64,000 nt of DNA from the human T2T-CHM13v2.0 reference genome, Homo sapiens, in NCBI GenBank assembly GCA_009914755.4, contig CP068257.2, forward strand, positions 34,880,001 through 34,944,000. Reading direction: 5' to 3'. The notes under the pieces were generated by a model. That model did not search any database, was not told the DNA's origin, and saw nothing but the letters and a program-made list of their open reading frames with translations. Position 1 is the stretch's first letter. Each line of letters starts with the position of its first letter. The position numbers and the translations under genes are program-made. Of this stretch, positions 44,384 through 58,907 are shown one piece after another.

Positions 44384-44569
44384 CAATAGACTTTCTAAAA
44401 CATTTAAATAAACTTCGCACCCCTTCTCACGCTGCCCGGAAAATTCTGACTTCCCTCACCTTGGGAGAGCAAGGCTCATATAGCAGACGTTGCAGACCTT
44501 GTTTAGGTCACACTTAAGATAAAGGAAGATGCAAACTCCTTTTTTTCTGATCAGCTGATCCCCTGTGAC

Positions 44570-44990
44570 TGACGGCCGGGGAGCCCCTATGGCACCAGTC
44601 TGTAGGCTACAGCCTGAGCCAGATTCCATGCTAAAAGTCCCGAGGCTGGCAGTGAAAGAAACCCCCCGGGGCTGGAAACTCACCCCTCCTGGGCGGCTGC
44701 ACACCAGCTCATGGCCGCTCTGGGGTCTGTGAGGGCCCGGCGCCCCTTCTCCCCAGGGAGCCGCGTGACTCTCCTTGATCCGGCCTCCCCTCGAGCGACA
44801 GGCCTCCCAGAGGCCCCCCAGCAGCCCCCGAGCAGTCCCCGGAGCGCTGGGGGACTCTGCAGCGCGCAGGTGACCACGCAGAGACAGCCCCAGCGCGATG
44901 AATAATTGAGGCGCAGAGTGGAATTACCTCTGTGGGCTCCGAGTCCCTCCCGCAGCCCGCACCTGCCCCTGCCCCTGTCCCTGCCTCTGC
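44570..44990. promoter_or_regulatory. Small CpG island (about 420 bp, GC about 65-68 %, about 25-30 CpG), ending in a (GCCCCT)-like short repeat; candidate promoter or regulatory element
   Basis: Counted by eye in cggctgcacaccagctcatggccgctctggggtctgtgagggcccggcgccccttctccccagggagccgcgtgactctccttgatccggcctcccctcgagcgacaggcctcccagaggccccccagcagcccccgagcagtccccggagcgctgggggactctgcagcgcgcaggtgaccacgcagagacagccccagcgcgatg ... ccgcagcccgcacctgcccctgcccctgtccctgcctctgcccc. There are about 21 CpG in the central 290 bp (observed/expected about 0.6). The rest of the window is strongly CpG-depleted. Confidence 0.6.
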
Positions 44991-45369
44991 CCCAAGGACT
45001 ACTGCTCTTTTCAGAAATGACGCCAGTACCAGCACGTGCAAAATGCCTTGCAGCCTTGCTGGGAACACATTTGCATACTCAGTTTCAGGTTTAAATGCCT
45101 GCGCATAAAACAGGATTAAATAGCACAACCTGGCGGGGGCAGGGGGGAGCACAAGGGTCTCCCTTCCACCTGGCCGGAGGTGGGTGAAAATCCCAGCAGA
45201 TTTCAACAACCCGCCTCCCACCCTACACCGCAAGTAGGTGCGCGGAGGGACTCAACTGCTGGGGCAGGGGCTGCCCTCTGGGGTAGAGGGACCCCCAGTT
45301 TCCAAAGTGAGGGCTCAGAGAGCACCCAACTTCTCCGTTCTCTCCTTTTTTCATTCATTTTTCCTCCAA

Positions 45370-45480
45370 CAGATATTTATTGAACACCTACTATGTGCCA
45401 GCACTGTGAAGGGGGACAGTAGGGTCTATAGCAGTGAACAAAAAATGTCCCTGCTCTTTGAGTTGGGGGAGACAGACAAT
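45370..45480 (+). mobile_element. MIR-related ancient SINE fragment (uncertain family)
   Basis: cagatatttattgaacacctactatgtgccagcactgtgaagggggacagtagggtctatagcagtgaacaaaaaatgtccctgctctttgagttgggggagacagacaat. Confidence 0.45.
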
Positions 45481-45689
45481 TAGAAAAAGATTCAAAGAAA
45501 TAACATAGTTCCCGTATGAAGATAAGAGCAACGACCAGGGAGAGGCAAACAAAAGAGAGTGATAGGGAAGTTTCTCAGGATGTTCAGGAGGGCCTTTCTG
45601 TCCTGCTGTGCTTAGATTCTGCCTATAACTTAATAAGTATGTTATCATTTGATAGTAATACTTACCAAACACTTCTCATGTTCTGGGCA

Positions 45690-45900
45690 CTATAATAAGT
45701 GCTTTAGCACTTTGGCTTTACATAATCGTTGTAACTACCTAATGACATGGATCTCTAATTGTGCCCATTTTACAAAAGAGTACAATTGAGGCAATGGGTC
45801 CTGAGGCCAGTAGCTGAAGAATGGCGGAGCTGCGACTTGAACCCAGGCATCTAGTTCTAGGACCCCACTCTGAAATACTGCACTGTAATTTACATATATT
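45690..45900 (+). mobile_element. MIR SINE fragment
   Basis: gtgcccattttacaaaagagtacaattgaggcaatgggtcctgaggccagtagctgaagaatggcggagctgcgacttgaacccaggcatctagttctaggaccccactc. This matches the MIR core ccccattttacagatgaggaaactgaggcacagagaggttaagtaacttgcccaaggtcacacagctagtaagtggcagagccgggattcgaacccaggc. Confidence 0.7.
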
Positions 45901-56624: not shown

Positions 56625-56800
56625 TGTTGGGAGTGTTTCATTCACTTATTCCCCACAACATTCGTGCAAGATGGATACTATAATTACTGCCGTTTTACAT
56701 ATGGGGAAGGCAAGGCACAGAGAGGTTAAGAAGCTTGCCCAGAGTCACACAGCTAGGATTCTGAGGTCAGAGTCGGCATTCTGATTTTTGAGCCACTAGA
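56625..56800 (+). mobile_element. MIR SINE fragment
   Basis: ccgttttacatatggggaaggcaaggcacagagaggttaagaagcttgcccagagtcacacagctaggattctgaggtcagagtcggcattctgatttttgagccactag. This matches the MIR core. Confidence 0.7.
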
Positions 56801-57931
56801 TTGAAGGGTTGCCAGCAGTACAGGCCTATAGATGTCTTACCGCCCCACCACCCGTTGATAGTTAAAGTTCCTTGAGGGCAGAGGAGGATGCCACGGGATG
56901 TGTTATCATCAAGGAGGCACTTGGTAAGTACTGATTACCTCCCGCCCCTGCCTCTGCAGCACTGACAGGCCTGGGAACGGTCTGCAAAATCTGATGGTCT
57001 CCCCATGACCCTCCAATTCTAAAAGCTCCCCTGACACATGCCATTCTCCAAATTCTTCCATATTTATAGAATTGCTTCCTCAATCATTGAGCATCTTCAA
57101 CACACTGCAGGGTCCCCTGAGAGCAACAGCCAGCCCCAGCCTCCCTGGCATTCCTGAAATGCCCCTGGGCTAACCAGAGGCCTGGCACATGGCAAGCCAT
57201 CCGCAGGGATTTGTCAAATGAACGAGTGAATGGATACCTATAACTCTGTCTAACTCAGAGGCTTTGAAGAGGCTTGCTGTTCTAGAATGCCTATAACCAT
57301 GCTTCACTCTGAGTGTTGCTTTTCTAGTATTTGGAGTGCATGAGGAGGGGTTTCAAGCGAATTGCCAAGATATAGCAGGCTAAAACCGCCTTGGTTTTGC
57401 CAGAAATCCCTGGAAAACACAAAAACACAAGCCAAAAGAGGAGGTCTTGGGTCTGGGTGACCCGTACTCAGCACGGGAATTGTCCTGTGGAGAAGGTGGT
57501 TCGGCTCCCGTGCCCTGCACGGGGTGCGCTGTTATGCTTCAAAACAGGACTTATCAACGATTTAGTCTCATTAAGTTGTAAGAAAACAGGCAGCGTGTTC
57601 CAAGGTCGTAAGTTTTCTCAACGTTCGAATGTTTCCAATGTTTTGTAAAACCAAAGAGTGCAGGAGCCCACGGGGCTTTGCTGGGGTGATGGATGGATGT
57701 GGAGTTGGTGAGGAATTTTTCCAGGCTGCCTTGAAAGCCAGCTCATTATGACCCCATGGGCTCCAGACGTTTTCTCGTTCCTAAGGCTGGTCAGGTGGTA
57801 CGTGGGACATTGCCCAAAGATGTCTAGGTCCCACCCTCCATTTTTAGCTTTACCAGAAGCTCCTGAGACTGCAAATGTGAACACACACAGCCACGCATCC
57901 CCCAATTTTCTACTCCTGATTTTCTATAGGT

Positions 57932-57942
<11 letters not shown>

Positions 57943-57986
<44 letters not shown>

Positions 57987-57995
57987 TGTGTGTGT
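57943..57995. repeat. Compound microsatellite (GT)~17(GA)~9(GT)~5
   Basis: cagtgtgtgtgtgtgtgtgtgtgtgtgtgtgtgtgtgagagagagagagagagagtgtgtgtgtgtgcacgc. Confidence 0.9.
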
Positions 57996-58907
57996 GTGCA
58001 CGCACAGCATAGGGACACTTTTTGCACAGTGAATCTGATTTTGGCCGCACTTCTCTAGAATAAGGAATTTTAAGAATTCTCACTTTGATCATTTCCCATC
58101 CCACATATCAGTTTTATCCCCAAAGATATCACTCCTGCAAACATCAGCTCCCAGTCACAGTGTTTCACTCAGGGGCTCAAGCTATTGGTGGTCGGTGACT
58201 AATTTCAGCACTTCACTGCCTGGTGCTGAGAGCTGCCCCACAGCTCACCTCGGGGACCCTTTCTTCTTCCAGTTTGCAGTTTGTAGAGCAAAGGGACTTA
58301 GGGACTTGCCATTTGCTTCTCTTGGGTCCTCAATTGATCAGTGTGTCCTCCAGTACTTTCTAGTTAAACTGGCTTATATTAGAGGTGGGAATGTCTTCTA
58401 ATTATAGCAGATTCACCCAGGGCCAGAGGTGACCTAAGTCAGAAGCCTACACAGCGATGGATGAAGAATCAGGTGGAGTGCTGCCCATGGTGGCCCTGGA
58501 CCTTTTTGTGCTTGGACCCTATAGTCCACTCCACCAAAGCCCTTTTTTGGGATCTCTTTATGGGGGTGGTAGGAAGACCACAGCTTTTGAGTCCAACAGG
58601 TTTGGGGTGGAGGTCTGGCTCTGCCTCTGCCTTGTGTATGAGTTTTGGCAAATTTTCTAACTCCCTGACTATGTCGCTTCTTTCCTCTACGAAGAAAACA
58701 ATGCATCCTCAGTGGGAGGCTGGTAACATCAGCCAGGATGACCGATATAAAAACACTTAGAACAGCATCTTGGAAATAAAAGGTACCAGCTCCCGTGAAT
58801 TCTCCGTGTCCACAGCTGTCTTCTTGAAAAGTCTCAACCAATGGAATTGCATTTCCTGTTGTTTGTTGATGGTCCCTGATTTTGGTGGATTCTCTTCTCT
58901 CTCTCTA

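What the first reader, a model, noticed from the sequence alone, without database searches (positions are those of the whole stretch)
44386..58907. About 14.5 kb block free of Alu and other young repeats, starting at a CpG island and retaining only ancient MIRs
In the first 44 kb an Alu occurs roughly every 1.5 kb, about 30 in all. Between the Alu ending at 44383 and the L1 starting at 58908 I can find no Alu, L1 or LTR. The only repeats are three MIR-type fossils (45.4, 45.7, 56.7 kb) and a few short microsatellites. The block opens with the only CpG island in the window (44.57-44.99 kb) and has visibly higher GC content (e.g. 49.6-53.7 kb). Such a long exclusion of young retroelements in an Alu-permissive neighbourhood usually reflects purifying selection against insertions. 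That points to a dense regulatory landscape, conserved non-coding elements, or the exons of a gene. It is the most likely place in this window for functional non-repeat sequence. I cannot recognise coding exons by eye.
Basis: partly seen in the sequence, partly recalled or inferred. Interest (0 to 1): 0.55.

Follow-up and report, generated by a model that had tools for sequence, protein, structure and literature searches.

The report
Alu-free upstream region of a lncRNA-like gene
The Alu-free stretch is real and holds the conserved CpG-island promoter/first exon, extra upstream exons and at least one strongly conserved enhancer-like element of a leftward-transcribed, probably non-coding gene, but most of it evolves neutrally, so this is an ordinary regulatory neighbourhood.

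Summary
Observation confirmed. There are 27 Alus in 1-44,381 and none in 44,382-61,329. No L1 ORF2 sequence lies in the block. Only old repeats are present (MIRs, and one ancient repeat that I read from memory as a MaLR LTR).

A primate gene model (P0004) maps to six minus-strand exons with canonical splice sites, at 55.6, 55.2, 50.9, 45.1-44.7, 12.6 and 11.5 kb. The island exon and its donor are conserved in a monkey, a carnivore and another mammal. A ferret model carries the same exon 4 to exon 5 junction. The ORF is not conserved and has no Pfam domain, so the gene is probably a lncRNA. The Alu-rich 32 kb is its intron.

A 330-bp non-coding element at 46.73-47.06 kb is about 90% identical between human and carnivore, against 70% background. 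Human-monkey divergence over 10 kb of the block is 6.35%, about neutral, with a few slow windows.

Other lineages carry SINEs inside the orthologous block, and L1-endonuclease target sites are half as dense there as in the flank. Selection against insertion is therefore plausible locally but unproven for the whole 14.5 kb. The gene was not identified.

The parts
44382..61329 (.). Alu-free interval.
   Evidence: blastn with an AluY consensus. Gap statistics. Rfam SRP-type hits only at the flanking Alu.
44090..44381 (-). Left boundary Alu. It is also present in the monkey ortholog.
   Evidence: Bases 4165-4200 of L003 run into it.
44684..45129 (-). Exon E4, probably the ancestral first exon, overlapping the CpG island. 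It has an acceptor cag|G and a donor GGAGGG|gtgagt. An alternative donor CAGAG|gtaatt at 44,928 is used by model P0008.
   Evidence: tblastn of P0004 and P0008. Splice sites. Four-species alignment.
44650..44960 (.). Weak but conserved CpG island core.
   Evidence: Human GC 0.69 and o/e 0.60. Carnivore ortholog o/e 0.72 with 39 CpG in 421 bp; monkey o/e 0.63.
44900..45131 (-). Most conserved promoter-like core. Motifs invariant in four species are ATGCAAAT (octamer), CCTGAAA, GGTAATTCCAC, TCAATTATTCAT (POU/Pit-1-like) and CCACCTGC.
   Evidence: Alignment A2. The motif names come from my own knowledge.
46244..46357 (-). Alternative upstream exon used by primate model P0008. It carries the Met and has the donor CTG|gtgtgg.
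   Evidence: The identical ORF is present in monkey contig L003.
46730..47060 (.). Conserved non-coding element, rich in homeodomain-type (TAATTG, CAATTA, TTAATCC) and SOX-like (CATTGT) motifs.
   Evidence: Human-carnivore identity is 90/99 and 92/99 in two 100-bp windows, against 69.9% overall. A 14-bp indel rules out coding. Human-monkey identity is 97.7%.
47400..47800 (.). Candidate constrained segment, with low primate divergence.
   Evidence: Non-CpG divergence of 2.5-3.0% against a mean of 6.35%. No non-primate sequence was available.
49600..49800 (.). Candidate constrained segment overlapping a small CpG-rich patch.
   Evidence: Divergence 2.2%, binomial p=0.009. CpG o/e 0.65 at 49,551-49,750.
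50751..50913 (-). Exon E3 of primate model P0004.
   Evidence: Human-monkey identity is 92.0%, so it is not constrained.
55103..55253 (-). Exon E2 of P0004. Its acceptor AG is mutated in the monkey contig.
55366..55629 (-). Exon E1 of P0004. This is the CDS part, with the Met at 55,629. The true 5' end is unknown.
   Evidence: Human-monkey identity is 90.2%.
12480..12617 (-). Exon E5, outside the block. It is spliced to E4 across a 32-kb Alu-rich intron. It is conserved in ferret.
   Evidence: 100% identity to P0004. 39 of 46 residues are identical to ferret M3YA18. Splice sites.
11388..11498 (-). Exon E6, which ends the P0004 ORF. A possible further donor ACACCG|gtaagt lies at 11,342.
45375..45407 (+). 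MIR fragment.
45656..45887 (+). MIR. An orthologous copy is present in the carnivore.
   Evidence: L001 1652-1761.
56637..56781 (+). MIR.
53023..53317 (.). Ancient interspersed repeat. From memory it is MLT1-type MaLR LTR-like.
   Evidence: A 61%-identical inverted copy lies at 22,122-22,432. The class assignment was not checked against a repeat library.
58908..62681 (-). Ancient L1 with many stops, interrupted by the Alu at 61,330-61,609.
Evidence: tblastn with L1 ORF2 proteins covers 59,162-62,681 at 30-44% amino-acid identity.

Best explanation
The block is the 5' regulatory neighbourhood of a spliced gene transcribed on the minus strand. That gene is probably non-coding.

Its ancestral promoter and first exon is the small CpG island at 44.68-45.13 kb. 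This exon splices across a 32-kb intron, the Alu-rich part of the window, to conserved exons at 12.6 and 11.5 kb.

Upstream of that promoter the block holds at least one enhancer-like conserved non-coding element (46.73-47.06 kb), a few further slowly evolving patches, and primate-lineage alternative upstream exons at 46.3, 50.9, 55.2 and 55.6 kb.

The rest of the block is old, neutrally drifting DNA that still carries Mesozoic repeats (MIR, L2-like and MaLR-like).

I attribute the absence of Alus to a mix of three things:
- local selection against insertions that would disrupt the promoter, the conserved elements and the exons;
- a half-normal density of L1-endonuclease target sites in this more GC-rich DNA;
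- chance.

Shown: the repeat map, the exon and splice structure, the cross-species conservation of the island exon, its donor and the conserved element, and the neutral average primate divergence. Inferred: that the island is a promoter, that the gene is non-coding, that the conserved element is an enhancer, and any role of selection in keeping Alus out.

The confidence of 0.6 is for the whole statement. I put the minus-strand spliced gene with its conserved promoter exon and conserved element at about 0.85, and selection as a material cause of the Alu gap at about 0.5.
For: Gene structure:
- P0004 (UniParc UPI0004F022B6) maps as six collinear minus-strand exons with canonical splice sites.
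- A second primate model, P0008, shares E4 and E5 and adds the exon at 46.3 kb.
- Ferret M3YA18 contains the E4-E5 junction, and its E5 is 85% identical at the amino-acid level.

Conservation:
- The four-species alignment shows invariant motifs and an invariant donor in E4.
- The CpG island is conserved and is stronger in the carnivore.
- The conserved element is 90-92% identical between human and carnivore, against 69.9% background, and has a 14-bp indel.
- Divergence is heterogeneous across the block (chi-square p=3e-4), with slow windows at 46.8, 47.4-47.8 and 49.6 kb.

Non-coding status:
- The ORF is frameshifted between the window and P0004.
- The P0004 cluster is a singleton.
- There are no Pfam domains.
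- Only nine library proteins match P0004 at E<=0.001. Eight are relatives and one is P0004 itself. All eight are fragmentary ORFs or models.

Against: - No RNA evidence from human was available. The exons rest on gene models from other species plus splice-site conservation.
- The gene was not identified.
- Average human-monkey divergence in the block (6.35% non-CpG) is at the neutral level. This holds only if the monkey is an Old World monkey, which is inferred and not known.
- E1-E3 show no constraint.
- SINE under-representation around exons extends only about 100 bp (PMC3088655). Exons therefore explain little of a 14.5-kb gap.
- Non-primate orthologous contigs end in SINEs inside the block. 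A Can-SINE sits at about 47,361 in the carnivore. Two tRNA-type SINE tails sit at about 45,770 and about 44,500 in the L002 species. The region therefore tolerates SINEs elsewhere.
- Non-primate sequence was obtained only for 44.4-47.4 kb.
Confidence: 0.6

Rival explanations
1. The gap is neutral. The block lacks Alus because of fewer L1-endonuclease target sites, fine-scale heterogeneity of Alu accumulation, and chance. The exons and the conserved element are incidental to the gap.
For: - TTAAAA/TTTTAA density is 1.03 per kb in the block against 2.07 per kb in non-Alu flank DNA. A6/T6 runs are 2.5 against 5.3 per kb.
- Average primate divergence is neutral.
- SINEs are present in the orthologous block in two non-primates.
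- Exon-proximal SINE depletion extends only about 100 bp.
Against: - Even after halving the expected rate, P(0 Alu) is about 0.01-0.02 at the left-flank rate.
- The gap is 3.5 times the next largest gap in the window.
- The gap coincides with a conserved promoter, a conserved element and slow-evolving windows.
- Flank target-site counts are somewhat inflated by Alu tails and target-site duplications.
Confidence: 0.35
2. The block contains coding exons of a real protein-coding gene. The 424-aa P0004-type protein, or a small protein starting at the conserved ATG in E4, would be the product.
For: - Databases hold protein models covering these exons.
- The ATG and ten codons before the E4 donor are conserved in four species.
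- The E5 frame is open, and 39 of 46 residues are identical in ferret.
Against: - A frameshift in E4 separates the window from P0004, and the window's ORF stops early.
- The models differ in both their 5' and 3' exons.
- The clusters are singletons, there are no names and no Pfam domains.
- Codon-usage and splice scans give no coding signal beyond CpG content.
- The ORF from the conserved ATG runs only 35 aa into E5.
- All seven human-ferret differences in E5 change the amino acid.
Confidence: 0.07
3. The CpG island drives a plus-strand transcript that runs rightwards through the block. The block would then be that gene's first intron or exons.
For: - A plus-strand ATG at 44,711 opens a 53-codon ORF ending at CAG|gtgacc, with a high CpG-driven codon score.
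- The CAGGTG motif there is conserved.
- CpG-island promoters are often bidirectional (my own knowledge).
Against: - No protein or gene model in the searched libraries uses plus-strand exons here.
- The plus-strand donor is weak.
- All splice-supported models are on the minus strand.
Confidence: 0.08

Closest known systems
Transposon-free regions (TFRs) near developmental and regulatory genes (Simons et al.; PMC2241635)
   Same: A stretch longer than 10 kb without fixed insertions over a long period, lying next to conserved regulatory sequence in an otherwise TE-permissive neighbourhood.
   Different: The block is not transposon-free. It holds MIRs, L2-like pieces and an ancient LTR-like repeat. 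It lacks only primate-age elements. Apart from one small CpG island and one proven conserved element it looks like ordinary DNA. Orthologs in other mammals carry SINEs.
CpG-island promoter of a conserved lncRNA with a proximal enhancer cluster
   Same: A conserved island, a conserved first-exon donor, a conserved second exon, poorly conserved lineage-specific extra exons, no conserved ORF, and a conserved element 1.6-2 kb upstream.
   Different: No transcript data from the window's own species were available. The gene name is unknown. The island is weak in human (o/e 0.52).
Exon-proximal TE under-representation zones (Zhang, Romanish and Mager 2011; PMC3088655)
   Same: Selection against TE insertion close to splice sites is an accepted cause of local TE depletion within genes.
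   Different: For SINEs that zone is only about 100 bp. That is far too small to account for a 14.5-17 kb gap with five short exons.

Membership tests
CpG island (Gardiner-Garden and Frommer criteria) | At least 200 bp, GC at least 0.50, observed/expected CpG at least 0.60. | tested here: met
44,701-44,950 has GC 0.688 and o/e 0.62. 44,650-44,960 has o/e 0.60.
CpG island (Takai and Jones criteria) | At least 500 bp, GC at least 0.55, o/e at least 0.65. | tested here: not met
   The best 500-bp window has o/e 0.57. The carnivore ortholog comes close, with 701 bp at GC 0.676 and o/e 0.64.
Transposon-free region (TFR) | At least 5-10 kb with no recognisable transposon-derived sequence. | tested here: not met
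   Three MIR hits. A repeat copy pair at 53,023-53,317 and 22,122-22,432. More MIR/L2-like pieces by eye.
Alu/young-retroelement-free block | No Alu, no L1 coding sequence, and no lineage-specific insertion relative to other primates. | tested here: met
   The monkey contigs are collinear with lengths within 20 bp over 10 kb. No RepeatMasker library was available, so short young fragments of other families are not excluded.
Conserved non-coding element | At least 100 bp with identity far above neutral between mammalian orders. | tested here: met
   46,740-46,839 is 90/99 identical and 46,940-47,039 is 92/99, against 69.9% overall for human-carnivore.
Conserved non-coding element | Not protein-coding. 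| tested here: met
   A 14-bp indel lies inside the element. No library protein other than raw ORF calls covers it.
Spliced RNA gene (lncRNA-like) | Collinear exons bounded by canonical AG/GT on one strand. | tested here: met
   Six exons, with all acceptors AG and all donors GT.
Spliced RNA gene (lncRNA-like) | Transcript evidence in the species of the window. | not testable with these tools
   Only gene models from other species were found (P0004, P0008, ferret M3YA18). No human RNA data are reachable.
Spliced RNA gene (lncRNA-like) | No conserved ORF or protein family. | tested here: met
   Frameshift between primates. Singleton cluster. No Pfam match.
Known RNA families (Rfam) | A match at gathering score. 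| tested here: not met
   Zero hits in the whole window. In the block only sub-threshold chance-level hits appear.
Region under blanket purifying selection | Average substitution rate below neutral. | tested here: not met
   Non-CpG human-monkey divergence is 6.35% over 9,647 sites. This is read against about 6.5% genome-wide human-macaque divergence, from my own knowledge. The identity of the monkey species is inferred.

The most novel reading that the evidence does not exclude
The block is an insertion-intolerant regulatory domain in anthropoid primates. Its spacing and architecture, rather than its base sequence, would be under constraint. The arrangement concerned is promoter, conserved-element cluster and alternative first exons over about 11 kb. 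This would explain a 17-kb absence of roughly 60 million years of Alu activity despite a neutral substitution rate.
Probability: 0.12. Interest if true: 0.45.

Novelty: already known. Interest (0 to 1): 0.22.

Why it matters
The result shows that a repeat-poor block found by eye can point to real functional sequence. Here that means a conserved promoter, a conserved second exon and an enhancer-like element. It also shows that the naive inference from 'no Alus' to 'densely functional' overstates the case. About 90% of the sampled block drifts at the neutral rate, and the orthologous region accepts SINEs in other mammals. The locus is almost certainly already annotated in the human genome, so the value is in triage and not in discovery.

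Tried and rejected
- Long concatenated ORF queries. I sent queries of 2,203 and 2,593 aa to the 5.8-billion-protein search. Both returned nothing. These negatives are unreliable. The queries contained exons of P0004, and human ORFs from the block are in the collection. A short query then found P0004.
- Codon-usage and splice-site scans for coding exons over the whole window. These gave only CpG-driven signal at the island.
- tRNA and Rfam scans. Nothing was found beyond Alu-derived hits.
- Fetching genomic loci for P0004 and ferret P0011. Neither is on record.
- Walking along a 51.6-kb JGI contig to see beyond the window. The contig is human contamination, 99.79% identical to the window. Its genes were called with a genetic code in which TGA is a sense codon.
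- Paper search for the run accessions, to learn the species of the contigs. No hits.
- An ENA contig joining XBP1 exon 1 to this locus. I rejected it as a locus clue. The join falls in a shared (GGGGCA)n repeat in a contig of about 3x coverage, so it is most likely a chimeric assembly.
- My first idea that exon proximity could explain most of the gap. I dropped it after reading that the SINE under-representation zone is only about 100 bp.
- Six-frame Pfam scanning by DNA reference.
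Full report
**What the window is.** The sequence is primate DNA packed with Alus. A 20.4-kb stretch of a JGI metagenome contig, L007, matches window 37,874-58,315 at 99.79%. ORFs from the block occur on hundreds of Logan and ENA contigs. That pattern is typical of human contamination, so the window is almost certainly human.

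**Checking the observation.**
- Alus. blastn with an AluY consensus that I wrote from memory finds 27 Alu loci in 1-44,381. The last is at 44,090-44,381 on the minus strand. It finds none in 44,382-61,329 and one at 61,330-61,609.
- Independent Alu check. A permissive Rfam scan of 44,000-59,200 gives SRP/Alu-type hits only at 44,093-44,380.
- L1. It shows a minus-strand L1 at 59,162-62,681 that is only 30-44% identical at the amino-acid level. That L1 is ancient, so the zone free of young repeats is really 16.9 kb.
- MIRs.
- Other repeats. A self-comparison of the block against the whole window gives one hit: 53,023-53,317 against 22,122-22,432, at 61% identity and inverted. That segment is therefore an old interspersed repeat.
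- CpG island. The island is marginal.

**Is the gap more than chance?**
- At the left-flank rate of 0.61 Alu per kb, the Poisson probability of no Alu in 14.5 kb is 1.5e-4.
- With 28 Alus placed uniformly over the window, a gap of 16.9 kb or more occurs in 0.4% of simulations. The next largest gap in the window is 4.9 kb.
- The block has half the density of L1-endonuclease target hexamers compared with non-Alu flank DNA, at 1.03 against 2.07 per kb. Allowing for that brings the probability to about 0.01-0.02.
- So the gap is real and unusual for this neighbourhood, but it is not extreme.

**What is in the block.** Two long concatenated ORF queries failed, and I later showed those negatives to be unreliable. 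A short query built from the island ORFs plus an L1 positive control then found P0004. This is a 424-aa unnamed UniParc entry with no Pfam domain.

tblastn places P0004 on the minus strand as six collinear exons:
- E1: 55,629 to 55,366
- E2: 55,253 to 55,103
- E3: 50,913 to 50,751
- E4: 45,129 to 44,684
- E5: 12,617 to 12,480
- E6: 11,498 to 11,388

Every boundary has a canonical AG or GT.

An exhaustive search with P0004 produced three useful kinds of relative:
- P0008, a second primate model. It uses an exon at 46,357-46,244, an upstream-extended E4 with an alternative donor at 44,928, then E5, then a last exon that lies outside the window.
- Ferret protein M3YA18. It contains the end of E4 joined to E5, with 39 of 46 E5 residues identical to human.
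- Raw ORF calls from Logan assemblies, which led to orthologous contigs.

**Coding or not.** The reading frame is not conserved. The window has a frameshift in E4 relative to P0004, and its ORF stops early. The different models disagree at both ends. The clusters are singletons. No Pfam family matches. I conclude that this is a spliced, probably non-coding gene.

The 32-kb interval between E4 and E5 is the Alu-rich part of the window. The block is therefore the gene's 5' end and upstream flank. It is not a gene that starts at the island and runs rightwards.

**Cross-species evidence.** Contigs were fetched through the ORF calls.
- Three contigs from one monkey sample cover 44,344-51,400 and 53,005-55,987.
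- L001 is from a carnivore, recognised by a Can-SINE tail at its start. It covers 44,388-47,361.
- L002 is from another non-primate and covers 44,657-45,765.

The four-species alignment of the island exon shows the following as invariant or nearly so:
- the acceptor;
- an octamer ATGCAAAT;
- GGTAATTCCAC;
- a POU-type TCAATTATTCAT;
- CCACCTGC;
- about 30 bases ending in GGAGGG|GTGAGTT.

The CpG island is conserved. It has o/e 0.72 with 39 CpGs in the carnivore, 0.63 in the monkey and 0.52 in human. This is what a conserved CpG-island promoter and first exon looks like, although I have no direct evidence for the transcription start.

The human-carnivore alignment over 3 kb averages 69.9% identity. 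It rises to 90/99 and 92/99 in 46,740-46,839 and 46,940-47,039. The element spans about 46,730-47,060, contains a 14-bp indel, and is full of homeodomain-type and SOX-like motifs. I read it as an enhancer-like conserved non-coding element 1.6-2 kb upstream of the promoter.

**How constrained is the block as a whole?** Human-monkey identity is 93.7%, 92.6% and 93.1% for the three contigs. Non-CpG divergence is 6.35% over 9,647 sites. That matches the genome-wide human-Old World monkey figure of about 6.5% that I recall. That the sample is an Old World monkey is inferred, not known.

Divergence is heterogeneous (chi-square p=3e-4). Slow 200-bp windows lie at 46,800 (1.6%), 47,400-47,800 (2.5-3.0%) and 49,600 (2.2%). 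Exons E1-E3 are 90-92% identical, no better than their introns. The E2 acceptor is mutated in the monkey. About a tenth of the sampled block therefore looks constrained, and the rest looks neutral.

**Does selection keep Alus out?** Three results weaken a simple yes.
- Published work puts the SINE under-representation zone around exons at only about 100 bp (PMC3088655). Five short exons cannot clear 14.5 kb.
- Target sites are half as dense in the block.
- The non-primate contigs end in SINEs inside the orthologous block. A Can-SINE lies at about 47,361, right beside the conserved element. Two tails of one tRNA-type SINE family lie at about 45,770 and about 44,500, flanking the promoter.

On the other side, the gap coincides with the conserved promoter, the conserved element and the slow windows. 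It stays improbable after correcting for target sites. I put about even odds on selection being a material contributor and about one in three on a purely neutral origin.

**Comparison with what is known.** The closest concept is the transposon-free region (PMC2241635). The block fails that definition because it carries ancient repeats. It is better described as ordinary: a promoter-proximal regulatory neighbourhood of a conserved lncRNA-type gene that has escaped primate-age insertions. Nothing here is a new kind of element, and the locus is very likely annotated already. I could not name the gene.

**Limits.**
- No human RNA data, repeat library or whole-genome alignments were reachable.
- Non-primate sequence covers only 44.4-47.4 kb.
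- The Alu and MIR consensus sequences, the repeat-class names and the motif names come from my memory.

Noticed in passing
window 41,416-42,258: An 840-bp G-rich degenerate minisatellite, with units such as GAGTGTGTGTGGAGT and GTGTGTGG. GC skew reaches +0.46. It lies in the intron about 2.4 kb from the island exon.
   Followed up: no
L006 (ENA ERZ505331 NODE_17017), bases 640-1576; window 44,341-44,982: A metagenome-assembly contig joins XBP1 exon 1 plus the start of its intron to this locus. The match to the window is 100% over 642 bp. The junction falls in a shared (GGGGCA)n repeat, so it is most likely a chimeric low-coverage assembly and not evidence of linkage.
   Followed up: partly
L007 (JGI 3300032031, Ga0326364_1134013, 51.6 kb): A long human-contamination contig in an environmental metagenome. 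Its genes were called with a genetic code in which TGA is a sense codon (table 4 or 25). This gives spurious ORFs of 200-340 aa on human DNA.
   Followed up: partly
window 11,290-11,400 (minus strand): Just past the P0004 stop codon there is GTTTCCGG (ETS-like), then CCAAGATGGCGG (YY1/Kozak-like, with an ATG and then ACACCG|gtaagt), then CCACCTGTGGCGCTAGGG (CTCF-like). This could be an internal promoter or insulator, or a further donor site. CpG o/e here is only 0.32.
   Followed up: partly
window 44,675-44,705 (minus strand): An ATG followed by ten codons and the donor GTGAGT is conserved in human, monkey, carnivore and a fourth mammal. Spliced to E5 it gives only a 35-aa ORF. It could be a conserved upstream ORF or micropeptide, or it could simply be conservation of the splice region.
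   Followed up: partly
window 49,000-49,190: This sequence (GGACATTTGGCAATGTCTGGAGACATTTTT... CTAGTGGGTAGAG...) looks to me like a fragment of an old mammalian interspersed repeat. I could not name it, and it has no second copy in the window.
   Followed up: no
window 5,500-5,900 (minus-strand translation): The ORF text here resembles translations of THE1/MST-type MaLR LTRs. The left flank therefore carries primate-age repeats other than Alu. This was not checked against a library.
   Followed up: no
window 1,900-2,500: A second CpG-enriched patch, with GC 0.56, o/e 0.45 and 21 CpG in 600 bp. It gave codon-score hits in several frames. Its significance is unknown.
   Followed up: no
tool behaviour (against 23): the search for homologous proteins missed true near-identical hits when given pseudo-proteins longer than 2,000 aa, because only the 8,000 candidates sharing the most words are scored. 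A 586-aa query recovered them.
   Followed up: yes
window 56,135-56,150: A perfect TATATAAG motif (GGTATATAAGCCCGGG) lies about 500 bp upstream of the E1 Met on the minus-strand gene's side. It might mark the start of the upstream isoform. This was not tested.
   Followed up: no
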